Of a stretch of DNA of 64,000 nt, positions 20,501-62,208 are shown piece by piece. The stretch lies in NCBI GenBank assembly GCA_965235115.1, contig OZ249436.1, positions 21,702,001 through 21,766,000 on the forward strand. The letters run 5' to 3'. A model generated the notes under the pieces. It was not told where the DNA came from. It did not search any database and saw only the letters and a program-made list of their open reading frames with translations. The DNA is from Laetmonice hystrix (lineage: Eukaryota). The position numbers and the translations under genes were made by a program. Position 1 is the stretch's first letter; every line of letters begins with the position of its first letter.

Positions 20501-21607
20501 ACACCACAAAAGTCAAAAGAAAGTGATTGTGGAATTACGTTATTGTGATACTCATGTGCTACTTTGTTGTATGTTAAGCTTCATGAGGTTGTAACCTGAC
20601 AATCAGTGAACCGTCTGAACAGTTGCAGACTGAACCCGTAGAAACAAGCGATTTCAGAAAGGGAACCTGAGGAACTACGAACTAGGGGTGGATAAAATAA
20701 TCCCTTGCATGTGTACAGGCCTGTCTTTTGAAGTTTAGGAGCACAATTACTTGTGCACCTAAACTTTAATTTGAACCTATAGCCAACTTTTTTTTTCTGA
20801 TAACCTGAAGATAAAGATGGGTATGTCTGATATCCAACTGAATATGTTACCAGAGCTACATGCTCATCTGAAAGCTCCACGATATAAAATACTGAAATTT
20901 TCACCTGTTCTTATTGGTAGTTATTATTAATTCCTTGACTAAAGTTTTTGCTTGTTATGGCATGCAAGCACAAATACATATCTTAAACACAAGGCCTGTG
21001 TAGGTCTATTGTACACATAAGACTCTGTTCACAACTAATACTGTACTTATGGTCTACAGATATATTTAATACACGTAGACTGCAACATGCTGTCAGTCTT
21101 AATGTAATAAAACGTTAACATTATTTATTCTTTATGCATGTTATAATGTTCAGTGTACCGGTTCAGAAAACCAGACCCCAACTAGCCCCCATAATTCTAA
21201 TTTTCCCCTTGGATTTTGATCTTTTCTTGCTACATTTTCTCTTTACAATTACGTGCCAGGCGAATGTTGTTAATCTCAGTTTTAATGCTAAAGAATATGT
21301 ACACGTGTCTGGAAATTAAATGCTGCAATCTGGTCATGATCTCATCATTTAGAGGCTGGTCTCATCACTTATGTCCTCATTGGGGCCAGGGCTAATTGGA
21401 GACGGTGTATTTATTTTACATCAGAGGAAAACTGCAAGTTAAAGTGCGAGAGACTCACAAGAATACGACCCACACCCTATTTCTAAACTGAGGGACCAGA
21501 ACCAATTATGCCTCAATTTAATTGAATTTTGCTAGAACGCCATAACTAAAGGACCCCACCCCTCCCAACCTGAATCCCCTTACACCAACAATTTCCCCTC
21601 ATACCTA

Positions 21608-22470
21608 TATATCGGGTGGATAAAAAAAAACGCCCCGAACTTTAAACTTCAATATTTCAAGAAGTAATGATTGTAATTTAAGGAAATTTTTCTTAATATC
21701 AGTTCATGATGTTGTCTCTTAGTTGTTAATGTTACAACTCAATAGCTTGGATAATATTTACGTGGGGCTAAAAACAAAAATCATTGTACAAAAGCGCAAT
21801 GCCGGCCTAAAGCGAGTTGTAGTCGCACCCAGAGTCCCTGGCCTCACACTAGAGTAGGTGGTCAATCGCTCCCCCGTTTTCACTCCATACTGCTCTCAGT
21901 CTCTTTTTCCATGAGCCAATGCACTTCCTAATCTCTGATAGGGAAATATCTTCCCAACATTGGGAAATACGCAACGTTCTGAACGTGTTGCTAAACGTGA
22001 TAATGATACGATTTCCCTAGAACTTCTCATTACAGTCACGTCGTCCTAATGTTTCATTTTCTCTGTAGGGTTTGGCACATTAAACATCTGTTTTTCTCTA
22101 AAAGTACTAGGAATAGCACATATTTTATTATATCTAATGGTCCACAACATGATACATATTGTAAAACATGCAAAAACTAAATATTGAATTTTTCTTTACC
22201 CAAGGTACAATGCGGTGAATCAAACAGGTGTCAAATTGGACACCTGGCAGCGGCATGATATTTGACCTAATTCCGGCATTGCATTTTTAGACACTGATTT
22301 TTGTTTTTAGCGCCACAGGATTAATATCAAAGCTATTGAGCTGAAACTTTAACATACCAGAGATAATATGATGAAGTAATATTAAGAGAAATTTTGTTGA
22401 ATTATAATGCATAGTTTTGGGAATATTAAAGTTTAAAGTTCGGGGCGTTTTTTTTTATCCACCCGATATA
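21608..22470 (-). mobile_element. Internally deleted Tc1/mariner-superfamily element
   Basis: TIR TATATCGGGTGGATAAAAAAAAACGCCCCGAACTTTAAACT and its reverse complement at ~22430-22470; imperfect inverted similarity extends ~200 bp; TA context at both ends. Minus strand 21849-21963 reads QCWEDISLSEIRKCIGSWKKRLRAVWSENGGAIDHLL*, resembling a Tc1/mariner transposase C-terminus. Confidence 0.85.
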
Positions 22471-22717
22471 TTCAATTTGCCAAATACAGTCCACCTTATC
22501 AATGTACATTTTTATGAAATGAACAACTATGGAGAAATTCTTACTCTGGTTTATTCTATTTCACACAAAAAACACAATTGTAATCTATCCATGGTTTTGA
22601 AATACATATAGCTTTGTACTGCATAGTTTGGATGATGAGGACTAGCAGTATAAACGTGCAGCCCATGATAACCATTGTGATACAAATATACAGTAGAATA
22701 CAATTGCTTATTCACCG

Positions 22718-25700
22718 TTACCATCTGAAGTGTGCATATGCTCGATTCGCCTCACATAATCTGTGCAGTTCTTGTTTCTTCCTTATAGTCTTGCCCTGAA
22801 GTTTAAAAAGGACAAGTTGAGAAACTGTGACAACACGTTCCAGTCACCTGTTTTAGTGATAGCTGGCATGGTAGTTGTACACAAAGTTGAATGGATGTTA
22901 GTAAAATCACTGAATGCTTCCTATATTACAGACGATTCAATCATTTAAAAACGTGTGATCATGTGAATTCCTGTTATTTAGTACGAAGACAAACACTCCA
23001 ACAAACTACCAACAACAAGTACCAACCTCATTTTTGTAAGCATCTAAAATTTCGTAGGCTAATTTATCCCAAACACGAAGACGCCTGTCCTTGTCACGTC
23101 CAGACTCAATAAGCCACTTCATAGCTGTGAACAGCTGGTAGTTGGGCTTTACTGGGATGGGTACCTGTAACATGCAGGGATTAAGCCAGGATTTTGAAAA
23201 AGAGGGACACCATGTCCCACTGCCCAGAAACCTAGGGGACATTTTCAATATTTGGGGGACAACTGAGTCACTTGACGAGGAGCACTGGCAACTGCTGTTT
23301 TGCCTAATACTGTATAATGTGTTGTTCTTGTTATCATGTTCCTCATATAATACTACAGTACTGGTGTTCACAAATGAGTCAACCCATACAACACTGTCTT
23401 TAGGGCGGGAAGGGGAAGGCCATAACCACTCTCCAGACAGAGATCGTTCTGCATTATGGGAGATTGGGCCATAACGTAATAGAGAACTAAGTCATTAGAT
23501 GGCGCTTCTTTATATCACACTAGGGCCCGGTTTCTGGAAAATACTTAAGTCTGAGTTTCAATCAACTTTACTCAACTCAGAAAATGGAGGATTCACATTA
23601 GCTAAAAACATTCTTTTGAGTAGATTTGAGTGAAACTAGTGGGCCTATTATTAAGTATGTTCGAGAAATCGGGCCCTGGTGGCAGCATTGGCATGCCTCC
23701 CTCTCGGTCGGCCCTCCAAGGTGGGACATTATGACGCAGCTAAGCTATAATAAGGGGACATTTGGTTAATATTTTGCGCCAATGGCGCGTGGGCGCGCTC
23801 TAGCTAAATCCCTGAACATGGTGTAATGCAATGACTACATGTACTTCTGAACCATAACAAGCTTACCCTCACTCCTACCTGCTACCAAACAAGGACTGCT
23901 AAATGTTCCAACCCATTGCTGACATGACTGTAAACTGTTCCAACCCTTTGCTGACATGACTGCTAAATGTTCCAACCCATTACTGACATGACTGCTAAAC
24001 GTTCCAACCCATTACTGACATGACTGCTAAACGTTCCAACCTATTGCTGACATGACTGCTAACTGTTCCAACTCATTGCTGACATGACTGTAAACTGTTC
24101 CAACCCTTTGCTGACATGACTGCTAAAGTTTCCAACCCATTGCTGACATGACTGCTAAACGTTCCAACCCATTGCTGACATGACTGCTAAATGTGCCAAC
24201 CCATTGCTGACATGACTGCTAAATGTGCCAACCCATTGCTGACATGACTGTTAAATGTTCCAACCCATTGCTGACATGACTGCTAAATGTCCCAGCCCAT
24301 TGCTGACATGCAGGTAAAATTTGAAAATGTAAGATAATGCAGCTTGTATACCTGATATATGACGCCTCCTCTTTTCACTGTTTGGGTGATAAGCAGTGGC
24401 TTACAGTTTTCAATAGCAGTGTAGAATATCTTCTTCGCATTCAACTCAATGGAATCTCTCTCTTCACTTGTTGCAGCTTTGTGGAATTTCTCTAGCTGCA
24501 TAAGCTTTACATTTTCTAATGTCTGAAACAAATTAGGTAAGCATTTACATTGTAAATATCTACAAACATCACCCATTGTGAAAAAAGTAATCATTCAACT
24601 GGGGAGAGAAAGAATTTCTTCACAGATCAATAGAAAATTTAATGATCAGGGTTGAGATTTTTCCACTGATCAGCAGATTTCTTCTCAACCCACACACATG
24701 ATGCCTCTGGTGTACAGTTTGGGTGCATAAAGTTTTCTTTTTTTTCATTGTTGGCCTGTCTCATCCCTAATGATATCAGGCAAACTCTCAGTAAAGGCTA
24801 GCAGAAAAACATGTGGACTAATGAAATTGGACATAAAGTAAATTTGCAAGAGGATTCAAACTTTGTAAACTTTCAAACCAAGTAATATGATGTGATTGCC
24901 AATCTCACCTGTATTTACTTTCTATGCATAATCTCAAAAACATACTATAAATGTTGCAAAAAACATTTATAAGTAAAAAGTTCCATACTGTCCATGACAC
25001 ATGGGTAAATAACCAGGCACTGGAGGCTTAACTTTCCAAGGTATGATTTTCCTTCCACAATTTTGAGTTGGGGTTGTGGTGGTTGGGGGGGGGGGGGGGG
25101 GGGAAGGGGCATCTGCCCCATCGCCAAGTTGTCCCACAACAAGTATTACTCTCTTCAGCTCCCCTAACATGACATATGGGAGCTAATGATTGCTCCCAAT
25201 GCTCATTTCCTAAGGCAGACACTGCTGCTTATGCCAGACAAATAACTCACCCGGGTGACAATGTATGTAGCTCTCTCCTTATTTCCTTCTCTCAAGATGT
25301 GTCTCACAAATTTTCTGTTGGGAAATAAGAACTAGACATTACATTTGTTATTTGATGCATATTTACTATGATCAAGATAGCAGGACTTAATTCATACTAC
25401 ATGTGTATTATCTTTTCAGTCAACATATTATCTCAAATTTAGATGGGAATTATGACAATCCTTGTTGACATATTCATACATAAATGCAGACTTTCAAATT
25501 GCCTTAATCTTGATGCTTATACTTACTGAATAAGTTCATCATAATTGACTGATGATGTTTGTTCTGGTACTGCTGCTTTTATAGGTTGAAATCTGCGAAC
25601 ATCATCATCAGATAAAGGCTTTTCAAGGTCCTCTTTTGTGAAAGTTGGTTCCAAATATAAGGGTGAATAATGGCTCCATCGTATTGATACTTTTCTGGAA

Positions 25701-28700
25701 ATGAACAGAACATGAAATCTAGTCTACATTAAAATTAGTAGTATCTTAGCTTGTTGTAGGAAAGACATACCTCTCCAAATATTTGAACTCTTTTTTTTAA
25801 ATTTTGCAAACATTCAGGCAAAATAATTAAACAAGTTTGACTAATTACCGACAGGAAACAATATGTTTGGGTTAGGGTTAAGGTTAGGCCTAGGGTGTTA
25901 CTAGTTTAGTCTAAAATTGGTTTTTAATTAGGCACTAATTCCATCCATCCCATCCATATAAATTAGGCAGTGGTTATTCTGCCGGCATATGGATGGGTCA
26001 TGTGACTGCAATATATTCTTATTGGATGATGTCTGACAGCAGAATAGCGGATTATCTGCCTAATTAACAACAATTTTAGGACTATACTAACACTAACCCT
26101 AGGCCTAACTTTTACCCTAACCCAACCACATTGTTTCCTGTCGGTAATTATAAATTAGTCAATTTATTCTGCCGTCTGACGGCAGAATAACCACTGCCTT
26201 ATCTAAATCCCTGCTGCCTAATTTCGGAATACTGGGAGTGTGACTGTGGACATGGTGACTGATAGATCTACAGGTGAGTGAGACTGCAGAGTGTGATTCA
26301 GTCGATTAGACAGGTTCAATCAAGTTTCATTTGGTACAGACATTTATATCAAACATAAAACACATCCTTTTCAATAATACTTGTATTTTACAAACCTCGG
26401 CTACAGCACAGGAGTCTGACAAATTTATTATTGGCTACCGCCCGCCCAATGTGTCAGACTCCTGTGGCTACAGCGGAGACTCGCTGCCTGGACAGGCTTG
26501 TGCAGCGGGAACAACCTTACACAAAGTGACAACTGACGTTTAATCGCCCTAATATCGTTCAACTCAATGCGGAGGACAGAATGAGAAAGCATTGTTGTAG
26601 CGCAAAAAGACTACTTCAGTTGGAACCCCTCAGTTGCCTAAACCTTCACAGTAGACTTTGCTCATAGAAATCATACATACATTGGTTGCCAACTTCGGGA
26701 TTCACCAAAAAGCTTTGTGACACCCACGGCACACCTTACGCACCCTGCCATTCTCGGACCTGGGACCTGCCTGAGCAGAAACTGGTACCCGGCTCTGCGC
26801 GTGTCGCGGTCAATGGGCAATCCCAACTTACCCGAATAGTGGGTTGGACAGGCTCCTACGCGCTCCTACGCTCTCGCGTGGTGTTGTGTTGCTCGTAAAG
26901 TCGACGATAAAAGAGATACATATTAAATCAGTTATGGAACATTAAACTAAATTATCCGATTTCCTCGTCATTAGATCTATATCACCTTAATGAGGCTAGT
27001 TTCGTATTTAGTATGTTAACCTGTGTCCCCTCCCAGCCGGTTCCTTTATGGATTCGTCAGTAGTGTCCGGCCTTGACCGGCCTTGACCCTACAGTCTGGA
27101 CGACGAGAAGCTGTCGTGCAGGTAAGGAGCGTACCTCTTTGTGGATGCATGGTTCGATACCTGTCCTTTCAGTCGGTTAAATGTAGGTAATCACGGTGTG
27201 TTTTATGTTTGATATATGTCTGTACCAAATGAAACTTGAGTGAACCTGTCTAATCGACTGAATCACTATAGTCTCACTGTCTCAGTCACCACGTCCACAG
27301 TCACACTCACACCCACCCCCACAGACTGATCACCCCGACTCACACTGAGTGTCTTGGCCAAGCCCCCCTTGCCTTTGGCTTGGCTCGCTGTATCTTACCG
27401 TACTTAGACTGAGCAGGGTCCGGTTCACAAGCAAAGTCCCGCAAAGTCAAGTAAATTTTAATTAACTTCAAATCTATTTTAACCAGTCAGATTCAAGTAA
27501 AATTGACCCAAGACGTTGATTAAAATTGACTTGACTTTAAAATTGTGAACCGGGCCCAGGGCAGGGGATCCTTTTCAATAATACTTGTATTTTACAAGCT
27601 CGCATCAGTTTTTTCTCATTTACAAGCTATAAATAGTATAGCCTACGTAGTAAGCCTTGCCGCGCCAGCAAGGCTTACGGGCAGTCAATGTTAATTCCTG
27701 GCGGGTCTGCTAGGCCCTATTACACACCTGCCACACCACCACCGCTTGCATTCGGGACTCCCTCGGGCATATGACGTCACTTCCTGCTATTCGAATATAC
27801 CCTCGGGTGGAATAGCGGCCATGTTTGGCAACCAGATACACGGCCAAATGGAGGTGTGTAGCGAGGCACTGAGTGAACCGTCATATCCCATCGAGCCAGG
27901 AAGTAGTGCATTATTGACATCTGCTCCTTCGGCGTTGTATGTGCAAATATAAATTTCTGGTATGAAGGGGAACGTTTGAAGAAGAAAAATGAATCACCAA
28001 ATTTACCTAAATAGGCGTCAATACGGTAATTTATCAAATTCTGGGAAGCAATATGGCCGCGCCCATGTACGACACTGGCCCGACACATGGTAGGACTACT
28101 TGTAATCATGTTGTAATTTAAGTTGTATCATGACATGATACTATTGTAATATTGCCCACTGACTTCGGAGAAAGCATTGTAGGCCTATTTTAGTTGCTTC
28201 CATGCCTGATGCAGACAAAATACTGCAAGCACTGCCATGCTGTCGAGAGTCCCGGCTAAATGTACCCGCGATGCAATGCTCAAAATGGCACCTATTTCAC
28301 CCGAGGCTACTTTCGAAGATATGGCCGAGGATTCCCGAATGCACCGCTTGCACTGATCAACTCACCGGCATCCATTTATCTCGACAGTAGGTGTGACGAG
28401 CCCTGAAGCAGTGTTTCTAATAGTACAGCGTCAAATTTAAAATTCATGTCAGATTATCGTTCTACCGGCCGCCATGTTACCGTTGATATCCCAGCATGCA
28501 TCTCCCCGCTCGGAAATCCTGAACAGCGACCACAGATTACCATACACAAACAGATTGGAAACGGCCATAGTAATGACGTGAAACAAAGATGGCGTCACAA
28601 TTCAGTGATTTGTCAGTGGCGACACCATGCGTCGGAGGAGATAAACTAAACGCCCTCCATAGGAAAAGCATGGCGTGACAGGTTTAGGACAACATATCTG

Positions 28701-28765
28701 ACAAATGACCTGCATTTGGTGGCAGGCGTAAAAAAATACGGTACTCGGATGCCTAGGGAAGCCAT
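22718..28765 (-). CDS. MRPS7: Mitochondrial ribosomal protein S7 (uS7m), ~224 aa
   Basis: Minus-strand exons: 28765-28710 (MASLGIRVPYFFTPATKC, presequence-like, least certain), 25694-25527, 25314-25251 (KFVRHILREGNKERA), 24522-24352 (AIENCKPLL...KRGGVIYQ), 23164-23027 (VPIPV...AMKWLI), 22795-22718 (GKTIRKKQELHRLCEANRAYAHFRW*). The C-terminus is typical of uS7 and all phases are consistent. Confidence 0.95.
23523..23676. mobile_element. Small MITE with GGGCCCGG-type TIRs (PIF/Harbinger-like)
   Basis: GGGCCCGGTTTCTGGAAAATACTTAA ... TTAAGTATGTTCGAGAAATCGGGCCC; a similar terminus occurs at ~27416-27557. Confidence 0.6.
23894..24310. repeat. Minisatellite, ~13 x 32 bp, in an MRPS7 intron
   Basis: Head-to-tail unit GACTGCTAAATGTTCCAACCCATTGCTGACAT with point variants and no spacers. 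Confidence 0.95.
25842..26150. mobile_element. Fold-back MITE with ~90 bp TIRs
   Basis: TAATTACCGACAGGAAACAAT..GGGTTAGGGT..GGTTAGGCCTAGGGT matches the reverse complement ending TTTCCTGTCGGTAATTA at 26150. The internal motif GGCAGTGGTTATTCTGCCG recurs inverted at ~26181 and ~62723. Confidence 0.8.
26236..27308. mobile_element. Non-autonomous TIR element, ~1.07 kb, ~130 bp inverted ends
   Basis: GTGATTCAGTCGATTAGACAGGTTCA.TCAAGTTTCATTTGGTACAGACAT..ATATCAAACATAAAACAC (26293-26363) is inverted at 27197-27266; outer GAGTGTGACTGTGGAC pairs with GTCCACAGTCACACTC. No convincing ORF inside. Confidence 0.75.
27723..28395. mobile_element. Degenerate TIR element in MRPS7 intron 1
   Basis: 27745-27826 (GCATTCGGGA..CCTCGG..TTCGAA..CCTCGGGTGGAATAG..GCCAT) is inverted at 28281-28343; possible CACACCT/AGGTGTG ends. 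Confidence 0.55.
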
Positions 28766-29030
28766 ATTTTCCCGGTAGGCTACCAACCTATGTCCAAAAT
28801 GGGACTGAGGACGTTTCCAGCCGGGCTCATGCATAACTTGTCATAGGTGCATTGTAGTTTATCTCACCATTCGCCAGGTGTCACTAGTGGTCACGGGCGC
28901 AAACCGGAAGTTTCAAATCGGCCTATCTCATTTCTAATCTGTTTGTGTATGCTAATCTGTGCAGCGACCTTCGGCTCTGTACAGAGCACAGAGCCGAATT
29001 CTTTGGCTATAAATAGTATAATTTATTAAG
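28766..29030. promoter_or_regulatory. Probable bidirectional promoter between MRPS7 and the LRRC14-like gene
   Basis: CpG-richer segment just upstream of the MRPS7 ATG (28765), with ETS/GABP-type CCGGAAGT at 28904-28911. The LRRC14-like gene has a 5'UTR acceptor at 30481-30482, implying an upstream non-coding exon (candidate donor at 29031). Confidence 0.5.
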
Positions 29031-46957: not shown

Positions 46958-49721
46958 GATTAATGCCCCTTTGTTTGTACTAATGCTGATACTTATACTG
47001 CCAGGGTAAGACACGGGTCTTTCCATCAGGGAAACGTGGCTAAAAAACGGTCCATGACACTCATTTCATTTCAACTTATTAAGACTCATTGAAAGTCATT
47101 AGTTGACAATTTTTACCTCAGTTCTCATGCACATAACTAGGTGCCTCACGATTGAGACATTGGTACCCAAATATAGAAAGTAACTGCCAGTAGAAGTTGG
47201 AAGTCTGTATTTAAAGAAAACAATTAGCTTCCGGGAGAATAACAATCTCTGCAATTGTAGAGTTGCCATAAAACGCCCTATAACCTACCGATTCTAGTTT
47301 TGTATTCGGAGTGAGTTATAGTAGACGCTAATGCATGGTCTGCTATTGCAGTCGGCTTCCAAGTGCAATTAAATGCATACTCGTTAGTCATATCAGTACA
47401 GGGAAACGGAAATTTAATTGCAATGTGAAAAAGGGCAAAATAGTTTTTAGATTGACGATATCGTCAATCCTGTCGGAGTTCGAAACGAGCTGTGTACTAA
47501 AAGTGTAAATGTTGGTTAGAATTATGACAGTCAGATGGCTTTATAGATTGATGCAAAGCTGAGTAATTTTTAGCAGACGAATCTTATTCCATATGTGTTT
47601 CTTGAAACTTGTGTGAGCCTTGCATGTAAATAGAATATAATAATCTCAGGAGAAAAACCTCTACAATAATGTACGTTTTTTCCATAAGTTTAAATGAGGC
47701 CTTTTATGAAGATAACCAATAAATTAGAATTGGGCCCAGAAAGACAGTGGTGTACTTGTTCAATTCAATTGTCCATATATATATATACATGTACTATAGA
47801 TATTGTGAGAAAAAAGGTGTGATGTTACGTTTTATTACAAAGCACAGTCGGTGACGGTAAAAGATTACCAGGAAACCACTTTTAATGTTTCAGTGAAAAC
47901 ATCGCTGCTAAGATTGCAGTAGGATTCAGACTAAACATCTCGTACTGCTGCGAATATTATAGGCATATTCCTTGTCGTTTGTTGTACATACTAGCTGTAG
48001 AAACGATACCCTAGGTACCCTAGATATTGCAATAAAATACGAACTATTACAAAGTTGATTTATACATGTTCATACAGATAGAATGACCTTGAGTCAGACA
48101 GAGGGGAGAGGGGGTAAAACTGAACGTCCAGAGCTAGGGTACGGTAATCCTGAAGAAATGAGCCTAATATGTTATTGATTACGTTCGGTAAATAGGGCCA
48201 CTATCGGTCAGTTTGACGTCACAGCAGTAGCGTACCGAGGGGGGTGCTTGGGGTGCTCAAGCACCCCCCTCAATTTGCCCAATTTTTTTTGGTGGCTCAC
48301 AGCCCCCTCCCAATTTGCAGCGCCTACGATTTGGTTATTTCCAGCACCCCCTGGGTCCTCCAGCACCCCCCCCCCCCCCCCCGGGTCCAGTTTCTGGGTA
48401 AGCCACTGCACAGAGCCTATATATTTTAAGGAATTCTATATGAAGAAAGCTATGGTCTAGCCGAGCCTATTATATTTCGAATTAAAAACGTACCAGTATA
48501 AATTAAACACAATTTGGGATACAAAAATATATAAGATGGGAGTGAATACAAGGCTGTTGAAGGAGGGAGGCAAAAGCGGAAACTGAGAAGGATCGATCAA
48601 AAACTTTAAGACAAGAAGAAAGAAAGAAAAAAAGGAGGGGGGGGGGTCCAATATCCGCCAAGTAACGAAATGTTGGGCCTTAGAAGAAAAATGCCTCAAA
48701 CAAGGGGGTCAATGACTGACCATGCCAACAAGGATACGCAGTAAGGCGTAATTGATCGCAGTCGTTTTGAGATTCATTTACGACTTGTGAAGGTAATTCG
48801 ATGATGATTACATCCTGTAAGGTGTTATATTTTCTTGACATGCGACAATTATACTTCCAATCGTCGAATGTTTGAAGCGCTAAAGCCCAGGACGATTCAG
48901 GCGACAGCAGCGCGAAATAGCATGACGAGGGACCTCTAGCGGGACCTCTTGCTGCCGTCTGGCGTTATAACCGTAAACTAAAACTACTGACTGCCATCTA
49001 GCGTTTTGTATTGAACTCATTATATTGTCGGCCACCAAGTAGGCGCTATGATTGGGTGTGTATAAAACGAAGACCGAAGACCTAAGACTGGTGTGAGCCA
49101 GGGTGACTACCTGTCCTGTTATGTAACATGTATGCTGCGTTGAGCGTGGCCTATCCCTATTCATATAGTCGAAGGTCTGTTATGTGGAGTCTCCTTGGCC
49201 TTGTATTTTAATCGAAGTAATTATGTGCTGCTATAAAAACATATCATAGGCTATATAGTAGGCCAATATGTTAGGGTGTCGGAAGGTAGGCCTAACTAAA
49301 TGCTGAGGTAAGAAGGCAGGAAACGATCGACGACAGCATAATTTAAAATTTTATTTACCATAACAAAATACATCGAGTAGGGTCTACGCCTACTTATGAA
49401 CGATATTTACAGTATATCCGCATATTACTTCAATCTGTTTTGTCATATATGTATAACAGCAAGTAATATCAAAAACTTCATAGTGACATAGAGAAGTTAA
49501 TTTACGCATTGAACAGTTTATGAACTAATTAACCCCACAAGTGAACAGTATGGACGATATAAACTAGAGAAGCACCTCGCCAGGCCTTTCCTTACGTAAT
49601 CTTCAATATATAGATAGATCTATCCATATGATATCACATACCACTTTAAAGTTTTAATATCTCTCAGATGTGAATGGGATCATCTGTGAATGTTTACTCT
49701 TCTCGTTGTCAACACGAGTAC

Positions 49722-49912
49722 AGCCGTGTTTTCATGTGTGCGTTTCCGTTTTCCCATTCCGTTTTCCGTTCCGGTTCGATCGGTTATGCCTATTTCCTAT
49801 GAGAGTGTTTCCATGTGCGCGTTTCATTCAAATCGGACTACAAACAGTCTCATAGGAAATAGGCATAAACGATCGAATCGGAAAACGGAAACGCACACAT
49901 GGAAACACGGCT
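49722..49912. mobile_element. Palindromic MITE (~190 bp hairpin)
   Basis: AGCCGTGTTT.CATGTGTGCGTTTCCGTTTTCC..TATGCCTATTTCCTATGAGA is inverted as TCTCATAGGAAATAGGCATA..GGAAAACGGAAACGCACACATGGAAACACGGCT. Confidence 0.85.
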
Positions 49913-50412
49913 TAAGTCTGCATCATAGGCGAATCGGGGGGGGGGGGGGGGGGGGCGGCACCGGGGGCACGTGCCTCCCCCAGCTTCCCTATACTCATTT
50001 TAAAATAATTTTGTCATAGGCCTATTTAGATTAGACCCAGCACATGAGTGGGCATGATGACGCAAATGGTTGTAGGGCCTAACTTATGACACAGAAGTCC
50101 CCCCCCCCCCCTTCCCCTGGATCCGCCAGTGCCCGCATGCTACATGTATATGTACCATCACAGTTACCAGGCTGATACCACTAATAAACGCCATTTGATA
50201 GCTCCCGTTACGAATCCGTGACATATACGCCCACTGCAATCCACATACATTTTGGTGTGCGCACACTTTTTTTTGTAAACTGTTCTAAAACAAAATAAAC
50301 CAAACGTAGAGCCATTTCATCGGGACATCGGCGTATCAAGGATAGTAAGATCTAAGACGACAAAACACGTGTGAATTTACATCTGTGAAATCTTGTGATG
50401 GACCATGTGACG

Positions 50413-53400
50413 TCAGTTGTCCACAGATACACTCTGCAGAGCCGCCTCAACGGCAGCACTTGCCCCGGCAGTGATGGAGTCCCGGTCTTTCTGTAAGATA
50501 AAAACATAAGTTAAGATAAGAACCTCACTTAGATTTAATGATTTTATTGCAATATCAGAACCTACCATGTTGTAACAGATGCGGGGTCTCTGCTGTTCCA
50601 CAACAGCTACACTATGAACCAGCTCTCTCAGCGCTATTCCAAGTAGGCGTATACGGTACACTTCACTCTCCGCCGGATATAGTGGCAGCAGCTGAACTGG
50701 TCTTAAAACAGGACTATGTGATGAACTGATCCACTAACAGCTGCACTGAACGTTGTAGAATAGCTGAGCCATTTGCTCTGAGAACAGTTACAGAGGGTTT
50801 AATCCAACTGAACCACACAGGCTTCGACACACGAGCTGTTTAAGTGTTTTCATTACAGGTGGTACTGTAGATCACTTTGGATGATATCATATAATCATTA
50901 ATAGTTATACAGTATTCTGCTCCACGTAGAGAGACCTAAAATGGTTCAAGTGGCATAAAATGGCATACTGGGAGCCTAGCTTAAGTTCCGTTGTTGACCT
51001 GTAGTACATGTAGCTGGAATTCCATCAACATTTTTGGGAGATGAAATGACAGAACGTTTCACTGCAAAGATGCTACCGGTGTATTTGAAACAGAATATTT
51101 CGAGTCCTACAACTACAAAATACATCCAATAATTGCAGTGTTCTTTTCAGCCATGCATACCCGATACTCGTATTAATGAACATAACCTGAAGACGTGTAA
51201 TCTAGTGATTTTTAGCCCAGCGTATAATTTGCCCTAGAAGAAAACATCTATTAAGAAAACAGGGTAAACCTATTATTGCCATCACCAACAAACAGGCTAT
51301 GCAGTTGAGGTCTATAGCGTTTTATATCCCCTCACCAGCGGGGATAGGTGTCAGAAGGAAATGGTAACTACAAACTAAAATCTGTATCACTCAGGGAAAT
51401 CTGGAACTGGGAGCAAAGCATTTTTATCAAAACTCAATTTAAAGGTCAAAAACCCTATCCAACGAGTATAGAATTCTATACTCGTTGCCCTATCTGATAA
51501 AGCTCAAGTCCACGCCGCAAACCTTATGCCCCTTTAGAAGCATTCTGGTCTTGAATCAATCAAAATCCTTGTATGCCAGTGATACTTATCTACATCCAGA
51601 ATTATTAATAACACAAATCTTACTTGAGTCACAGACACTGCAATCATCACAGCTCCCTTTCACCTGAGGAAGGCCCCACACAGGCGTGCGCGAGGGCTGG
51701 GGGGGGGGGGGGGATAAGCGGCCGCACATAATGCCGTTGAATCAGGGACAGGGACACCCAAATTATTATTCCACTGTGAATTCTTTCAATGAGGGAGTGG
51801 GGTGTGCTGCCCCCACCCCAGCCTCTTTACGCCTATATGCACCCACATGCATGTAGCACCACAATAGCAATAGGTGTCCCTGCTGAAACAATTGAAAACC
51901 ATCCATCCTACACAGTGTAACTATTCTGCAATTTCCACGTTTTTGCCTCATTACGCTCTATGGTATATCAAATTCAGTGTCAATACTACTACTAGAGAGT
52001 ATGCCATGTTCATAAACATCTTTACTCAATTTTAAATGAAATTGTTGAGAAAGAAGATGTCCTTGAAATTTTCAGTTGCAAAACGAAATTGTAAAATGGT
52101 TGCACGTTAAGTAGGCGGACTCATGACTTATCACCTACCAGTGGTTTCTGGCCTGTTAGGGGCTCTTTAGCCTGGAGAGGCAATCAGGAATATCTGTCAA
52201 GCTCACTGGCAATGTCCTGACCTCAAGCCATATACCGGTAATGACCGTATGATTTATGACTACATGCTCCCAAAAAGAAAAATATTCCCGCCCTCCATTT
52301 TCGGTTCAGTGGCATTTCTCTCAACCAAGCCGTCATTTCTTCATCAACAATAATGAATACTAGGTAGCCACCTTGCAGAATGATGACTACGATTACTACA
52401 TTGATGTAGCGCTGTATCATGTGAGCGTTGCAGGTTAGTTCTAATCCCCTTATACAGTATGTAGTCCATCCCTCCTGCTTATAACCAAGAAGAATACCAT
52501 AACCACTGCTCATAATCTAGCAAAAAAAGAACAATTATTATATTCGAGTCATCTTTAACAAAGAACGCCCCTTTTTTACTCTTGGGTATCAATTGTATGC
52601 TCACATAAAGCACTTCATTGTGCTGTGTATGTGTCACATGGACCCATCAATGTAACCTCCTGGCTTTACCTTGAGTTCGAGGATGAGAAGGTCGGAGAGA
52701 CGCTTGACCTCTCGAGGTTTGGAGAGAAGAGCGGCCTGTCTCTGGAGGTGGTCATGGAGGGCTGCCTTCTGTTTGTGTACGAATCGGGCGCTGTCGGTAA
52801 CGTCTCGGTCGACGAGCCTGACAGCATACAGTATAGACAGTAGCATCAGACTGTGCATGCACTATAGTAACAAGTCACGATTCTAGGCTGTTGAACGTGC
52901 AAGTTTCAAATCTAGGGACAAATTACGTTATTTCTATAACTCGGGATGTAATCTTTCCGCCAATCTTCAGTTCCTGCTTCATGTTGTATACTCTACTAAT
53001 ATTGGCTCCAAAAGCTTTAATGGAACTTATGCTACCAATATACACCCGGTATCTAAGAAAAGAGTACACATAACAAAGACACAACGCGCTCAATAAGAAG
53101 TTATGAGTGGAGGAATTAATGTATCTGTGGTATCTGAATTGTGAAATCAATGTGTAATACATTTGTACCAGAACAGTGGCATACTTTGGCAAATCTGTGA
53201 TGCCACGACCTTTTCCACATGCATACCAATCCCCCCCCCCCCCCCCCCCACCCACCCATTGTCAGGCGAGGATCCAGGGGGGCCTGGGGGCACGTGCCCC
53301 CCTAGACCCCCAAAAGTGGCCGATCCCCGTTCTATACTTTAGGCTCTTTTTTACATAATGATTCCGACTGTGCCCCCCCCCCCCCCAGGCCACCCCCTTC

Positions 53401-56400
53401 TAGATCCGCCCCTGATTGTTGTCCCTTCCTACCGCCCAAAGAACTCTTTCACAGTTCTTTATGCCCTCTCAGGCCTAAATGTACCACTGATAACTGCTTG
53501 TTTCTAGTCGATCCCAAAATACATTTTAGGTCCCATTACCTAAACTTACAACATACCTAATCCTATAGTAGGCCTATAGATATGTCTGTAGGATGATATG
53601 ACTTACCATGCCAAATGCTCTTTCTGACAGCAGGGAAAATAAAAGTAACACAGAGTCTAAGCTTAGTCAATACAGCTTCTCCCACAAAGGATATCATCAA
53701 AGATAATTATCACTTAGCTAAGTATGAGGGGCGGTTGAACCACGTTAACCTTACATTTGGTAATCTTTTTCAAGCTGCCGAACACCTTTAAAGGAATCTT
53801 GAATCAGATCGTGATATGTTTTCGTTCCAACTGTGACAACAGTTAAGGTATGGTACGAAGATACAGCTTATGCAAGGAAAAATATGGTGAAACACAAAAA
53901 ATTATTAAGTACTAGACAACATTATATAGCTAAGGCCATGCCCCTGACGGCAATGCAAGCGTTTGTAGATACGACTACAGTTGTTTTCAGATACTCAGTA
54001 TCCCGTTTACCTGAAAACAAGTTGATCATGCAGGTAATACATATATTTAGAGATGGTGGGATTTCAAGAAAAATGTTTTGGCAAACTTACAATTTCATGT
54101 TATTTCCTGGAAAAATGATGGTGTCTCTCCAGACTAAATAGTTAGCATCGTCACTTCAGAGTACGATTAGGTTAAGGTTCATCAAGTGCCAATACACCAC
54201 TATCTACGAATTCTGTTATCCCCATATCTGCATGGTACTAGGAAAAGGATATGGAGGAAGGACCCCAAACTCGGTCCTCTGAACACGAATCACTTTGCCG
54301 GCGTCTTCCTCGAGCCGCTTCATCCGCAGAAAGTGTGCCACGAGAGGGCTCTGGCCGTTTATGTTGAAGACGTTGCGGACGAATTCGGGCCCCCTTCCGA
54401 CTGGATGTGACTGAGTCAATGAGGGAATGATGCAGGAACATGTGAAAACGGTAAGGATGACGGAAAAAGTGTGGGTAAAGGAGGTCGGGGATGTGAGCTG
54501 TATGCCAGGATGGGACGTTTAGTCACGTGGCTAGGTACATTGGTGGCGTCTGTTAAACTAATTGAATTCATTAGGTGGGAATATGTGAGGTGGTTGGTTT
54601 AATTTTTGAAAAAGTAAATATTAAACAATGCAGAAGATCGTTTTCATCACCATCTAAAGGTAAAAATAATCAGCTAGATCTATATCTAATATCTATACAA
54701 TTGTATGGTATCTAAGCTGCTGCTAAGCGATCATGGAATACACTGCCTGAAAGTCGGGTATCACAAGCACGTAGTGTGTTACCAAATAAAAGAAACAATT
54801 TTCAAATAACCTCTTTCTTGGGAAGATTGCGAGGCTGAGCCAAACTGACGTAAGACTTGCCATCAACAGTTGACATCTTGGATTCCTTGGCATCAAGGCT
54901 TGCAATTGCTCCAAGAGGATCATACTCGTCAAACTCCCTAATTGGTGTCAGAATCTCGGGCCCCTCTGTTTTGTTGCCATCTGTCGTCACTGAACGACTG
55001 GTCTTTGAATTTTTCTTAGCTGTCTTGTGGTTTTTCTTCATGCGTGCATTGCGTTCCATGTCGAGCAGACGCTGGGCCTCGGCCACCCTCTGGATGGCCC
55101 CAGCATCACTGAACACAGGGGAGGACTGGGCGATGGACTGCCGGGCTATACTGTGCCGTCTGTGGCCAGCATGCCGACGGAGGCCTTGACCAAGGTTTGA
55201 CATGGACGACGTGGATGTCCCTAGCTGGTGTATCGTTGCCTGGGACCCTGTGTATTCACTGTTGGACGACTCCAAGAAGTCAAAGTTCAACACCGAGGCT
55301 GCAATAGAGGTGTATGACTTGCATACGATTTGTCTAGAATCCTTTTTATTCTTTATGGAAGAGGCCTGAAAATTACCCACATATACGTCAGGCCAAGCCA
55401 ATATTTACCGTTGCTCCAAGAAATAATGATTTCTCATAATGATTTCTGATTATTTATATTTGTAGATCGATGTATCCAAGCTTTTCAAATCAATGCACAC
55501 CTTTCTTCTTGTCTTTTGCTTGGGTCATGATTTCCTCACGTGCCTTAATGTTTGCAGGCTCCAGTTTCTTCAGGTTCCATGTCTGCCAAAGGCCGGGGAC
55601 TGGCTGGATCCCTGCCAAACACGTCCATGTTTCATGGATAGTAAATTAGTAATGAAGCAGACACAAAAACTTACATCATATATAAAAAGCCAAAATGCAA
55701 GCCAATGGGGTCACTCACCAGCCACCCACTCATAAATGAGGTTTATCATGTCAGCTTTGAAGTCCGAGTTGAACTGTCGGTAGGAGTCGGGGAAGGTGCT
55801 ACAGAAGGCTGTGTACACGGCCTGGGACAGCAGGCTCGGGTAGTCTCGTAAAAACGTGTCACGGTACTGTGGGTGCTTGGCGTACGTCAGCAGCTTCACG
55901 TAGTTGTGTGCGATACGGTTGAAAAGCTTCATCTGGTACTGTTGGCTGGGCTGATACTTCTCTTGGAACACCCACCAGAACGTATCCTGAAAAAGGTATA
56001 CAAAAGTGTCGGATCACCCACAGCAATGGCTAAGTCACAGAGCGTCTCCGTAAAGTTATAGCTTTATGGTAAAGTCGAGGTCCAGCAAGAGACACCCCCA
56101 CCACAGACCATCAGTAGTATATGAAAATAGCAGTTCTGTCAGGCCTGGCTCCTGGCCCAGAACTGTCATTTTATATACTAAGTAAAAACTGCGATCTAAA
56201 TTCCGTACGCTTAAACTCACGTCTGATGTTCTTTCCTTTTTACGTATGCGTTTACTACATTTTGAAATGCTATTCATTATTTATTTAATCATATTTAATT
56301 TTATTCATATTTAAACAGCGAAAAGTGTGAGAAAGCAATTATTACCAGCAGTACAGCCTGGGACATCTGGGAATAGAACAACCTCTCAAACTCTGGCCGG

Positions 56401-59400
56401 TAATGAACCTAGTGGAAAAAAGAAACACTGACATATTGAGCACTTTTAAGAAGATATTTTGAATTTTACCATAACGAAAAAGTTGTCATCTTATATGATA
56501 GTAATTGGGTGTGGTGAGAACTATATAGGACTATCAGAGTTGAATGATGTACTGTAAAAATTTAGTATGGGATTCCACTTCTAACTCCCTAAGAAAGCCT
56601 TAATTCAACCTGGATGCCCAAAATTTTGGCGACGGTTCCTACCTTCGTTCTAAGTTTGGGCTGTGCTTTGGCAACTTTTGAAAGGATATCCGTACACGAT
56701 ACATCGTTTGGGAAAGGTGTGAGCTCTGACGGATCATAGCCAGGGTACTGGTGTAACTGAAGGTTCAAAACAAACACAACAATAGTACTGGATGGTCATT
56801 CCTCCCTGAACGTGGTGATTACACAACAAAATCATAAAGGGGCTTTCCTCAATGTAAACCAGTGCAAGCTGACTTCTAGAAAACGTTGTACTAAACTTTA
56901 CTTTGAGGGAGGGGCATAGATTTGAATTCTATTAACGTTGTCTAATACAATTACTTACACCGATCGTACTGAGAATTGGTAAGGAAAATGGATAGTCATT
57001 TGAGTAAGGTCTTTTGCATTCGTTTTTTGTCACATGAAAAAAAACAATATTAGTCCTGGAAAATTACACACACCCCTTTGGCTGCATACTTTTGGTACAT
57101 ACCTCCACAAACTTTGGTTTTCCGCTATCCTTCTTCATCTGCAGCAAAATGAGTATGATATCGTCAGAACTTATGAGAAGACATAATGTAATGGGTTCCA
57201 GTAACGGCTGTGAACAATACATTCAACAGGATTATGATGGTTTGAAATCATGGTTGCAGCTAACCAGTGTTAAAAGGTTAAAATCTGAGATGAGGTTCAG
57301 GGAACTGCTTGCAGGTGTGCAATAACAGATACAAGCAAGGTGTAATACAAGGCGTGGCTTGCTTACCGTTGTTTTACTAGGGCTCATGCTTATTTTTGAA
57401 ATGTTTTTGACTCTTTCACTCAGTCCTGGGGTAAAGGCTGAAACCAGAAGCAGTTACACAGATTTGAACAAAATAAAAGATTTGACAAATATCTCCCTTA
57501 GCAATTCTGTCAAGTACATTGAGGTGCAGCCGCTATGTAGGGATGAGCCCTGCAGCAACTGCCACCATTAGCCTGATGAGGAAGAAAATAACAGCATATC
57601 CTTCTATCTATACAATGTATTCAACTTTCCAATTAAAGTTGGTGCTCGAACAACTTATGTGTGACTCTAGTTCACCAAAGCTATACTGATATTAGCAGTA
57701 TTGTAGACCCGTGTGTACTAGTAGTCCAGAAACTATAATTCTGTGCAGTCCCTTCTAATAAATATGTCCTACTCCCTACATCCCCTTGAAGTAAACAAAC
57801 AAGAATATTAATTCAACAATGGGTTATGGCATATTATATATTCCTCCTATTCTGAGATGTACCACTAAGCCTTGTCTTAGTCAAAACGATAAAATTTTTA
57901 CATGATGACATTGATTAAGCACACTTGATCTAAACGATAGTAAATCTAATAACAATTAACTACCGGTACCTATGTCCCTTGAATGATTCTTAATTGAAAG
58001 GTGCTTTCAGTTTTGCGTCCAGGTTGATAAGTTGGGCTCCTTAGCACTTACTTTGGTGGTAACCCGCCTTATCAAATTAGTGTAAAAGTTGCTACGTGAT
58101 ACACCAGTCATTATGCTAGATATACCGGTACATTTACCTCCTTGCATGACTGAAATGATAACAAAAAGGTGAACATGTAAATGATGGTGAGTATCAAATT
58201 ATTCTTATGTTTGATCCATGGATTATCATATCAATATCAATCCTGACTAAGTCTATTTCCCATTAAGGCTATACACTTACAGCTCATCGTTTGACATGCT
58301 ACACTTTCATAAATCATTCATTTTTTAACGATATCATATGCCTGCATTACTTAAAGTTAAATGGTTAGATCCCTGTTTTTTACGCTACATCGTCTGGTTA
58401 TAACACGATAAGTCTTTTTTTTATGCTGGAATATAAATAAAAGTATACTGAAAGGAATTACTGTAGCGTAGACCTGATCACCAAACTACTGGAAAAGCAT
58501 TGTCCTGCATCCTATTGTTAGGTGTATTATGAATAAATCATTTAAACTAATTCAGAGCATGATCAGGGCTGGATTATCAGCAGCTGGGTAGTGTGGTTTA
58601 AGTTAATCTTTTAGCAGCAAAAGAGAGTTTTGTTGCCCATTGTTGCTGTCCACTAACCCCATGTGATCTCCAGGGTTCTTACCAGAAATGTTTGACGGCG
58701 TAGTGGTCATACCAATTAAACACGGACAGAGCCCTAGTTAGGTACAAGAGGGGCAGTAAACAATTGACATTTTACTGGTATTCCTGTGGGTTCTGTTGAA
58801 TTTAGACAAGTTTTTACCACTACTGTTCAAGAGACAGTGTAGCGGCCCAAATACACAACAAAGTAGCCCACTATGCAGAAAAAGGCTAGTGAGAACGCTG
58901 GACTCTGTTGGTTGCCAAATTGATGAATTCAGTCCCCCAAAGACAAAGGATACAATTGGTTTAGTAACTACTTACAGTACCTACAGGCCTACACTAACAG
59001 GTACCTGCCTACTATTAGCTTAAGATTTTTCATGGAAACTAAAATATTTTATGATTTCTACAGGCTTGAACCTATAACCTATGCGGTCTCTGTCTTAAAA
59101 TCTACAATTTTAAGGAAGGACTCCATTATTTTTTTGAGTAGCAACATTCCCAACATTCAGCCTCATGCCCCAAAGTGGCACAGCCAGGGCACGTGCCGCA
59201 TGCCAGGATGCAGGGTTAGGTACGGGAAGGGGTTATCGCCCTTCTGCTGGGGGATATGGGGAGCCACCCCCCAAAAAAATTAAATTAAGGGTTGTTTCAG
59301 ATGCATTCTGAACAGATTTTGAGCAGAAAGTGATGCCTAACATATAGGCCCTTCTTTTTCAAACGGCAGTGACAAGGTGATTTTTATGGTAAATAGCCAT

Positions 59401-62208
59401 TTCTAGAGAGATTCTGTGTAGGATATGAGGGACTGAGCAAAGCAGCGTAGTTGGAGTGTCAAATGCGTACCAAATATGCTAAATACGTAGCAGTTGGCAG
59501 GTCTGTAATTTACCTATGATTCCCCCTCTTTTTAGAGATTTTTGTTTTCTCTCCTATACATTCCCTGGAAAAATTAGATTAGGAATTTTAGGAGAAGATA
59601 ATTGATATACTTAATAATAATTGTAACAGATGGGAGGAATCCGAATGGCTTTAAAACTGTATTTTCTCGCTTTATATAGAACAAGTACAATTTTTATCAC
59701 CTTGCTGTTCACTGCCTATAAAGGATGTACAAACAACAAGTGAGGTATTACACAAGAATTTCAGAATAGAGATGTTTTTTTTTCATTCTGGCTATAATAC
59801 ATTTAAAATTTCGATTTTTATAAAATTGAAATTAAGGATCAGATTCATTAGAAGGCAAACATTAAAATGCTGTGGAATAATTCAAGGTAATAACATTCAA
59901 AAAGGGGGACTGGGTATGTCATGCTTCAGTCTATAGTGACAAAATTGGTTTTGTGTTACCAAAAAAAGCAATGCATTTTTTCTTCAACATTGCACATGAT
60001 CCTTGTATAAAAACGGTAGTACTACACAAGGTTAATAAGTCCCACTTATCAAGCAAAATATATTTTGAATACCAACATATTTCATTGTCAATTCATGCAA
60101 GACAACGTAGAAGTACATGTACAGCAATCACAGATTCACACTTAATGAGGACTGTGCTACCTTATAACCAAACTAATTATTTTGTAAACTTGAAATCCAT
60201 CCAATACCTACTGGCTTTCAAGGTGTAGACTCCGGCAAACCTATGCACCTCTTTAGCTTCACGTTCTATGGAGGAATAAAGGTTATAATTACATCGTGGT
60301 GATCAACTGTTTTACTGCACCACTTCACAGATAATAATTTCCACTTTTCTTGGTCCATCAAGTAATCTAGGAAACATAATACATGTAGTGACTTAACTAA
60401 GATACTGTACCTTTTGCCCCCTCCCCATGTTAGGCCTTACGTATTTAGCTAGATCATATTAACATAATAACGAGCAGAGCTGACATAGACTGACTCACCT
60501 CGTTTTTGATAAAGTTCTCGACCCTCTGTGCTTAAGGGTCGCACCAGACCCTGCAGGTCATCTGTGTGATCTGAAGCTCGACTTTCCACCACCAACTCTG
60601 TGTAGGTCTGTAATTTTCTGTCCAAACTGCTAATTCGCTTGTTAATTTCATCAATTGATCCAATGAGAAAAGCTTTTGGTGAAGTTAAGGATATGTTTTA
60701 ATCTGGAATGGATTTTTCATATCTCATAACAAATAAAAAAATATATATATAAAAGAAGGCCAAAAACAGAATCAATATGGTGCTTGCTCGCAGATTCACC
60801 CTTCACCCAGCACCCCGACAAGGCTGTGGCTGTGGCTGTGCGTGGCCCATGCCATGCCCATGGTCAGCTGCTGAGTGTTGAGTGCTGAATACTGTTGGAC
60901 TGTGATAGTGAGAGACAAGGGTAGGGGCCACTATACTCTATCGTGACTGTAAAAAAATTACATACACCAGCACTATAGGCAGCAGTGCAGCTAGGGAATT
61001 AATTCACTAGTCGTACCATTACCAGGCCAGGCTATACAGAGACTCCCTTCTAAACAAAATTCACAAACTAGTATGATATCTCAGACTTTTATACAAGCAC
61101 GGCAATGCCAATAGAGCTGGCCAGCTCTCATGTCCTAGATATATGCAAATATGTAAGAACAAGTGAGACTGGGGACAAACAGAGGCTAGTCTCAATAGTC
61201 TCGCGACTTCGGCATTTACAAAGGATTTCAGTATTTCTCCGGGGGTAAGTTCGTTATTTGGACTGGATTTCGGTATTCAAGAGGGATATCGTTATTTGTC
61301 AATAGTGATTTCGGTAATTAGATTGGATTTCGTTATTTCTCAATGGTGATAATTTCGATCATTAGATTGGATTTCGGTATTTGTCTGGGGGGATTTCGAT
61401 ATTTAGACTGGATTTTGGTATTTTGTCTCTGGTGACTTCAGTATGTCTTTGGGGGTGATTTTGGAATGTAGAGTGGATTTCGTTATTTCTCAACATGGTG
61501 ATTTCGCTAATTAAATTGGATTTCGGTATTTTTCAATGGCGATTTCGTTATTTAGGAACCATAGGAACCAGCGACTATCAACTTAAAAATATATTTATGG
61601 TGATTTCAGTATTTTTCGGGCCTGGGGGGGGGGGGTGATTTCAGTAGATCTAGAGACTATCTAGACTGCATGATCCTGCAGACACTATTATTATTGAAAT
61701 CACCTTTAAGAAATGACGAAATCCAATCTAAATAAATCAACGTTGAGAAATTACCGAAATCCAATCACTGTGTCTGTGATTGGATTTCGGTAGCCTATTC
61801 CTCAGCGTTGATTTATTTAGATTGGATTTCGTCATTTCTTAAAGGTGATTTCAATATTTAATTTGGATTTCGGTATTTGTCTGGGGTGATTTTGGTGATT
61901 TGGATATTTAGGTCTACGGCTACGTAGTAACGCTCAGGCTCAGCCGCCCTCAGCACTCCTCCGTCCTATCACTTCTCATTCGAGACGAGTCATGATGTTG
62001 TGCTAACTTAATTAATGTGGGAAGATGTAGATAAACACCATTAACACAATTGCTAGCAAACAAATAGGATACGGGACTTAGTTTTCTGACCATCTTCAAG
62101 ATCTTTCCTACGTTGTATCTGTTGTTCCCTACTTTCCTCATAATTTTCTTCGACGAGTTTCATTGGTGTCGTTGCCCGGTTAATCGCTTCGCCTCCCTTC
62201 TCCGCCAT
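50413..62208 (-). CDS. FAM227-family protein (FWWh domain), ~657 aa
   Basis: Minus-strand exons: 62208-62073, 60672-60499 (PFLIGSIDEINKRI), 60366-60316 (least certain), 57437-57367, 57138-57103, 56756-56643 (LHQYPGY), 56408-56346, 55986-55719 (DTFWWVFQEKYQP..QMKLFNRIAHNYVKLL..YPSLLSQAVYTAFCSTFP), 55611-55501, 55298-54811, 54410-54253 (GPEFVRNVFNINGQSPLV), 53832-53755 (KTYHDLIQDS), 52817-52670, 50490-50413. FAM227A versus FAM227B cannot be resolved. Confidence 0.9.
53833..54252 (-). other. U12-type AT-AC intron (420 nt) of the FAM227 gene
   Basis: 5' site CC|ATATCCTTTT; branch motif CCTTAAC (plus coordinates 53842-53848); 3' site TCAC|AG. Splicing gives in-frame VLPP-VGTKTY. Confidence 0.9.
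60673..62072 (-). other. U12-type GT-AG intron (1400 nt), first intron of the FAM227 gene
   Basis: 5' site C|GTATCCTAT; branch motif TCCTTAAC (plus coordinates 60684-60691) just upstream of AAAAG|; no polypyrimidine tract. Splicing gives in-frame KS-P-FLIGS. Confidence 0.85.
61222..61910. repeat. Degenerate (TTGGATTTCGGTATTT)-like array with an embedded long palindrome (61692-61856)
   Basis: Many GATTTCG(G/T)TATTT units; 61692-61768 is inverted at ~61776-61856 with a short loop. Confidence 0.85.

What the first reader, a model, noticed from the sequence alone, without database searches (positions are those of the whole stretch)
53833..54252. AT-AC minor-spliceosome intron overlapping an in-frame U2-type alternative (twintron-like)
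Seen: on the minus strand the FAM227 exon ends CC|ATATCCTTTT, the U12 AT-AC donor consensus. The intron ends CCTTAAC-TGTTGTCAC|AG, a U12 branch box followed by an AC acceptor, giving VLPP-VGTKTY in frame. Also seen: a weak GT donor 14 nt downstream (CCTA|GTACCA, 54238) and an AG 2 nt past the AC (53831) also join in frame, replacing V with YPFPI (+4 aa). Established: AT-AC introns are rare, and nested U12/U2 splice-site pairs are known as regulatory twintrons (e.g. Drosophila prospero). Inference: both spliceosomes may process this intron, or automated annotation would wrongly choose GT-AG.
Basis: partly seen in the sequence, partly recalled or inferred. Interest (0 to 1): 0.72.

Follow-up and report, generated by a model that had tools for sequence, protein, structure and literature searches.

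The report
Ancient AT-AC intron; twintron unsupported
A 420-base intron in a FAM227 gene has the rare AT-AC ends and is cut out at exactly those ends in the one spliced transcript seen, so it is likely removed by the minor spliceosome, as in its likely human and mouse counterparts, and the second intron proposed on top of it is probably a chance match, which makes this an ordinary finding.

Summary
The AT-AC intron is real. Intron 11 of a 14-exon FAM227A-like gene (54252-53833, minus strand, 420 nt, phase 2) has a U12 donor and a branch box 10 nt from the AC. One spliced contig skips exactly 420 nt. The genome encodes U11, U12 and U6atac, and U11 and U12 pair with the sites. The donor leaves a Tyr-Pro read-through mark at this position in 21 of 161 homologues. 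Human and mouse FAM227A/B are catalogued minor-intron genes (PMC6717393 supplements). The in-frame GT-AG pair exists but looks like a decoy. Its donor makes 4 pairs with U1, against 6-8 for the 11 real donors. Such pairs arise by chance in 5-58% of simulations. None of 161 homologues has the +4 form, and the AG is impossible at this register in 41 of 42. Genome-only gene models in other species do dodge this intron. Against my reading: contigs hide minor isoforms, and human FAM227B shows shifted 5' and 3' sites in testis. The scan reached a similar verdict for another gene in another genome (e1-9537428).

The parts
53833..54252 (-). Intron 11 of the FAM227A-like gene: U12-type, AT-AC subtype, 420 nt, phase 2
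   Evidence: Sequence; skipped as 420 nt in the spliced contig of run X4; whole ORF of 658 aa
54243..54252 (-). U12 5' splice site ATATCCTTTT
   Evidence: Matches RTATCCTTT (PMC1635337); 6 Watson-Crick + 1 G-U pairs over +4..+11 with this genome's U11
53841..53850 (-). U12 branch box; likely branch A at 53843, 10 nt before the intron end
   Evidence: 8 of 9 pairs with this genome's U12 when the A is bulged; that this A is the branch point is inferred
53833..53834 (-). AC 3' terminus (used)
   Evidence: Only the AT..AC placement of the 420-nt joint gives recognised intron ends
54231..54238 (-). Decoy GT donor at +14, no G at -1 or +5
   Evidence: 4 pairs with own U1 against 6-8 for 11 real donors; 73% of 477 intronic decoy GTs score as high or higher
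53831..53832 (-). AG formed by the first two bases of exon 12 (the proposed U2 acceptor)
   Evidence: Exists because the codon after the junction is Val here; that codon starts with G in 1 of 42 homologues
54253..54410 (-). Exon 11, upstream of the AT-AC intron
   Evidence: Contig pieces and joints
53755..53832 (-). Exon 12, downstream of the AT-AC intron
   Evidence: Contig pieces and joints
60673..62072 (-). Intron 1: a second likely U12-type intron, GT-AG subtype, 1400 nt, phase 1
   Evidence: Donor GTATCCTATT, branch box 12 nt from the end, 8 of 9 pairs with U12; skipped in the X4 contig
50166..62208 (-). FAM227A-like gene, 14 exons, 658 aa, from the start codon to the end of the contig
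   Evidence: 13 joints; ORF; Pfam FWWh PF14922, E 4.5e-39; best hits for one exon are annelid and mollusc FAM227 proteins, 72% to Owenia

Best explanation
This is an AT-AC intron that is cut out at its AT and AC ends in the transcript seen and is likely removed by the minor (U12) spliceosome alone, with the overlapping in-frame GT-AG pair probably an unused chance decoy. Mechanism: the U11/U12 particle would pair with donor bases +4..+10 and with the branch box (pairing computed with this genome's snRNAs; the binding itself is inferred). U6atac would replace U11, the bulged A would attack the donor, and the 3' end would be set about 10 nt past the branch A, at the AC. The intron is ancient: the same position and phase are marked in molluscs, an echinoderm, a skate cluster and the paralogue in this genome. 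It is very likely the orthologue of the minor intron catalogued in human and mouse FAM227A/B. The GT is at most a cryptic site that could show up when minor splicing is slow or fails.
For: Spliced contig: 13 of 13 introns skipped, this one by 420 nt, and no 408-nt joint listed in either laying. The three other runs do not skip it, and no retrocopy appeared among 2 genome matches. U12, U11 and U6atac are over Rfam cut-offs in G000, and pairing is good. Of 161 homologues, 21 read into the donor as Tyr-Pro after the same residue, 120 join directly, 5 delete around the site, 15 do not cover it, and 0 show +4 aa (hand-corrected). The residue after the junction is L 29, M 7, S 3, I 2, E 1 of 42, so the AG cannot exist in 41 of 42. 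The alternative donor makes 4 U1 pairs against 6-8 and lacks both -1G and +5G, whereas all 11 real donors have at least one. The paralogue keeps the U12 donor but has no GT at +14. Human and mouse FAM227A have two minor introns each and human FAM227B one, with AT donors after CC (PMC6717393 supplements; PMC6800510 supplement).
Against: The transcript evidence is one contig from one sample, and run X4 is not on record as RNA; I infer that from its 13 clean skips. Contigs drop variants: at exonic sites such as 53817 the DNA contigs and the X4 contig show different letters, one each, so a minor isoform could be hidden. In human testis the FAM227B minor intron is listed with alternative 5' and 3' sites (CAT6 and CAT7) at index 1.0 (PMC6717393 Table S7), without coordinates in the rows I saw. 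At the tightest window the chance rate is only 4.7%. The AG has a fair pyrimidine stretch (0.69, within the 0.44-0.81 range of real acceptors). Dependence on the minor spliceosome was not tested, and some AT-AC introns are U2-spliced (PMC6717393 passage). Orthology to the human intron is inferred; no human or mouse sequence was aligned.
Confidence: 0.87

Rival explanations
1. A shifted U12/U2 twintron: the minor spliceosome makes the 658-aa form, and the major spliceosome uses GT 54238 and AG 53831 in some tissue or stage to make a 662-aa form.
For: The pair is in frame and open. Shifted twintrons make up a third of 18 human cases (PMC3564746, first part of the text). Human FAM227B shows CAT6+CAT7 in testis. 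Contigs cannot exclude a minor isoform.
Against: No 408-nt joint. The donor is at decoy level. 0 of 161 homologues have +4; 0 of 24 transcript-like and 0 of 85 RefSeq-type proteins rejoin after Tyr-Pro. The spacing across the junction is fixed within each paralogue group. FAM227 is not among the 18 genes of PMC3564746 Table 1.
Confidence: 0.06
2. Low-level cryptic use: the GT-AG pair, or another of the 8 in-frame pairs, is used as noise or only when minor splicing is impaired, with no regulatory role.
For: Activation of nearby cryptic U2 sites is the typical outcome of impaired U12 splicing (PMC8329584 passage). Alternative 5' and 3' sites are the commonest events around minor introns (PMC6717393 passages).
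Against: Nothing here shows it. The donor is weaker than most decoys. This reading overlaps with the best explanation rather than opposing it.
Confidence: 0.15
3. A U2-dependent AT-AC intron, or GT-AG as the only true form.
For: U2-dependent AT-AC introns exist (PMC6717393 passage; PMC1557818 abstract start in a listing).
Against: The donor and branch box match the U12 consensus and pair with U11 and U12. The contig skips 420 nt, not 408.
Confidence: 0.02

Closest known systems
Minor (U12-type) introns of human and mouse FAM227A and human FAM227B (PMC6717393 supplements; PMC6800510 Table S3)
   Same: Same gene family. AT donor preceded by CC (mouse Fam227a, human FAM227B rows). Two minor introns per FAM227A gene, as here.
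   Different: Invertebrate host and a much shorter intron (420 nt; the human entries are 2407, 4381 and 31951 nt). Position was matched by inference through a skate FAM227B cluster, not by direct alignment to human.
Drosophila prospero twintron, SRSF10 and the 18 human twintrons (PMC8329584 section 7; PMC3564746)
   Same: An AT-AC U12 intron with a nearby GT-AG pair that gives a longer protein.
   Different: There both forms are seen in transcripts, and they are conserved or regulated. Here only the AT-AC form is seen, and the pair is shifted, weak and lineage-specific.
Annotation bias against AT-AC introns (U12DB, PMC1635337)
   Same: Gene models avoid the AT-AC join. Direct and read-through or rejoin models coexist for one species in Biomphalaria glabrata, Magallana gigas, Mytilus galloprovincialis and Mya arenaria.
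   Different: Shown for homologues; I saw no annotation of this genome.

Membership tests
U12-type intron, AT-AC subtype | Donor RTATCCTTT | tested here: met
   ATATCCTTTT at 54252; consensus from PMC1635337
U12-type intron, AT-AC subtype | Branch box TTCCTTRAY close to the 3' end | tested here: met
   Core CCTTAAC, one mismatch upstream, branch A 10 nt from the end; 8 of 9 pairs with own U12. The optimum quoted in PMC6717393 is 11-13 nt; ways of counting differ.
U12-type intron, AT-AC subtype | AT and AC ends used in a transcript | tested here: met
   420-nt joint in one contig of run X4
U12-type intron, AT-AC subtype | Minor snRNAs present in the genome | tested here: met
   U12, U11 and U6atac found; U4atac not searched
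U12-type intron, AT-AC subtype | Position conserved in orthologues | tested here: met
   Read-through mark in 21 of 161 homologues; same donor in the paralogue
U12-type intron, AT-AC subtype | Excision depends on the minor spliceosome | not testable with these tools
   Needs a knock-down or in vitro splicing; intronIC was not available
U12/U2 twintron | Both sets of terminal dinucleotides at one intron position | tested here: met
   but at a chance-level rate
U12/U2 twintron | Both introns spliced in transcripts | tested here: inconclusive
   Only the AT-AC joint was seen; contigs drop rare variants and no raw reads were offered
U12/U2 twintron | U2 donor of usable strength | tested here: not met
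   4 U1 pairs against 6-8 in 11 of 11 real donors; 73% of 477 decoys score as high or higher
U12/U2 twintron | U2 pair conserved across relatives | tested here: not met
   0 of 161 with +4; AG impossible in 41 of 42. No close relative's genome was available.
U12/U2 twintron | Regulated ratio of the two isoforms | not testable with these tools
   No tissue-resolved reads

The most novel reading that the evidence does not exclude
The FAM227 AT-AC intron is a recurrent site of spliceosome competition. In this animal a shifted GT-AG pair gives a +4-aa isoform in some tissue, and the shifted sites listed for human FAM227B in testis are a convergent case, so the intron would be caught on the way from minor to major type.
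Probability: 0.06. Interest if true: 0.4.

Novelty: new member of a known kind. Interest (0 to 1): 0.13.

Why it matters
As it stands, it matters modestly. It extends a catalogued vertebrate minor intron to an invertebrate (likely lophotrochozoan) gene with transcript support. It shows that both FAM227 minor introns predate the A/B paralogue split, and it gives a clean example of gene models failing at AT-AC introns. If the twintron were real, it would add one invertebrate case to a class known from insects and vertebrates and offer a snapshot of minor-to-major conversion.

Tried and rejected
No RNA holder was listed by the run search; this counts neither for nor against. A profile search of the large representative library was not obtained, so no mammalian or bird FAM227 sequence was aligned. 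Literature: FAM227 + 'minor intron' found 0 papers in main text and FAM227B + U12 found 2 unrelated papers; the gene appears only in supplements. I did not search for a paper on this species' intron by name, so I make no claim that it is absent from catalogues such as those of PMC10639083, whose supplements I did not open. One supplementary file of PMC6800510 was not searchable. Rejected: X4 as a retrocopy (2 genome matches only, a lower bound); other placements of the 420-nt joint (ends TA..CA or CA..CA); a conserved GT-AG escape route (the rejoined models differ: about +25, +23, +16, +7, 0, -1, and three exon skips); AT-AG use of the AG at +2 (a frameshift). Source labels were assigned by hand from names and accessions. 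P0024, P0030, P0149 and P0150 were moved to 'direct' and P0072 to 'not covering' by eye. That Logan and JGI proteins come from transcripts is inferred from their short contigs. Homologue counts include isoforms and close species and are not independent.

Full report
Observation. On the minus strand the exon ends CC at 54253, the intron opens ATATCCTTTT at 54252, CCTTAAC lies at 53848-53842 and the intron closes AC at 53833, 420 nt in all. The GT at 54238 and the AG ending at 53831 give a 408-nt intron that is also in frame and adds 4 residues. The pair is shifted rather than nested, since its acceptor lies 2 nt into the next exon.

The gene. The exon at 55714-56013 matches Pfam FWWh (E 4.5e-39; 1 of 7 pieces scanned matched). 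Its best hits are FAM227 proteins of annelids, molluscs, a hemichordate and a nemertean. The run search listed 4 runs of one sample, none on record as RNA. Three cover introns evenly. The fourth, X4, holds one 2124-nt contig that skips 13 introns, and joining its exons gives an open 658-aa protein. I infer that X4 is RNA; a protein search of the genome found only this gene and one paralogue.

Which junction is used. The contig skips 420 nt here, with 2 nt of placement freedom, and only the AT..AC placement gives recognised ends. No 408-nt joint was listed at 95% or 90% likeness with a 1% share threshold. This shows use of AT-AC and suggests it is the main form. It does not show absence of the other form, because contigs keep one path: at exonic sites such as 53817 the DNA contigs and the X4 contig show different single letters.

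Minor-spliceosome fit. G000 encodes U12, U11 and U6atac over Rfam cut-offs (U4atac not searched). The donor makes 6 Watson-Crick pairs and 1 G-U pair with U11, and the branch box makes 8 of 9 pairs with U12 with the A bulged, 10 nt from the end. Both match the consensus given in U12DB (PMC1635337, passages). The intron is phase 2, in line with the bias of minor introns away from phase 0 (PMC10639083, passages). Dependence on the minor spliceosome is inferred, not tested.

The proposed U2 pair. Its donor makes 4 pairs with this genome's U1, while the 11 real U2 donors of the gene make 6-8. All 11 have G at -1 or +5 and this one has neither, and 73% of 477 intronic decoy GTs score as high or higher. 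The acceptor is unremarkable (pyrimidine share 0.69). In 20,000 simulated AT-AC insertions per setting, an open in-frame GT-AG pair appeared in 4.7% (+-14/+-2), 17%, 31%, 58% and 82% (+-30/+-30). The real intron has 8 such pairs within 50 nt, and the paralogue has 6 at other offsets.

Homologues. 161 proteins were examined (tallied with five hand corrections). Transcript-like (27): 23 direct, 1 reading into the intron to a stop, 0 rejoined, 3 not covering. RefSeq-type (92): 82 direct, 3 reading through, 0 rejoined, 7 not covering. Other models (42): 15 direct, 8 reading through, 9 reading in and rejoining, 5 deleting around the site, 5 not covering. The 21 read-ins all begin Tyr-Pro after the same residue, which is the translated U12 donor in phase 2. 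They occur in molluscs, a sea cucumber and a cluster whose named members are skate FAM227B. None of 161 has the +4 form, and the rejoined models differ in length. In four species direct and read-in models coexist, which is what annotation bias predicts. The residue after the junction has a G-starting codon in 1 of 42 direct homologues, so the AG is a by-product of a local change to Val, assuming the same intron position.

A second minor intron and the paralogue. Intron 1 (62072-60673) has a GTATCC donor and a branch box 12 nt from its AG and is spliced in the contig. The paralogue at G000:C1 near 31.13 Mb has both introns at matching places: a GT-AG one of 192 nt and an AT one whose homologue-length join ends in AA, 10 nt from the branch A (predicted, no transcript laid). 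AT-AA ends are known.

What is known. Supplements of PMC6717393 list two minor introns each in human and mouse FAM227A and one in human FAM227B, with AT donors after CC for mouse Fam227a and human FAM227B. PMC6800510 Table S3 lists the same three human introns. I take intron 11 as the orthologue of the AT-type one by inference. Twintrons are defined by use of both introns (PMC3564746, first third of the text; PMC8329584 section 7 part 1 and passages), and FAM227 is not among the 18 human genes listed. The main point against my reading is that PMC6717393 Table S7 lists alternative 5' and 3' sites for the human FAM227B minor intron at index 1.0 in testis only. Reads were aligned with Hisat2. A value of 1.0 implies no reads at the annotated join, which could be real or a mapping shift away from AT-AC (aligner penalties recalled, not checked). 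The rows gave no coordinates.

Verdict. A real, ancient AT-AC intron, likely U12-dependent, in a gene family already known to carry it (confidence 0.87). The twintron reading is unsupported (0.06) but not excluded without raw reads. Earlier scan notes: none near this place; two elsewhere, seen after my reading was fixed. New member of a known kind; interest 0.13.

Noticed in passing
window 62072-60673 (minus): Second likely U12-type intron (GT-AG subtype, 1400 nt, phase 1) in the same gene, spliced in the X4 contig; human and mouse FAM227A also list two minor introns.
   Followed up: yes
G000:C1:31129155-31128962 (minus; loci L008): The FAM227B-like paralogue has the same intron with an AT donor; the join that matches homologue length ends in AA (predicted AT-AA, 194 nt). 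Not checked against a transcript.
   Followed up: partly
G000:C1:31133344-31133153 (minus; locus L007): The paralogue also has a GTATCCTT donor at the position matching intron 1 (192 nt, open join); its branch box is less clear.
   Followed up: partly
PMC6717393 Table S7: The human FAM227B minor intron is listed with alternative 5' and 3' sites at index 1.0 in testis; real or a mapping shift is unresolved.
   Followed up: partly
window 53230-53400: A G-run-rich element in intron 12 with very high depth in the DNA runs (12,000-29,000 in two runs), so a high-copy repeat.
   Followed up: no
window about 49690-49915 and 58800-59350: Repeat-like stretches with many X4 contigs; the first shows a joint between opposite strands, perhaps a small inverted-repeat element.
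   Followed up: no
window about 61200-61900: Many short AT-rich repeats of a GAAATC-containing motif inside intron 1.
   Followed up: no
P0058 (Dimorphilus gyrociliatus): This protein lacks about 20 residues before the junction; the species is reported to have lost most minor introns (PMC10639083 passage). Real change or model error is not resolved.
   Followed up: no
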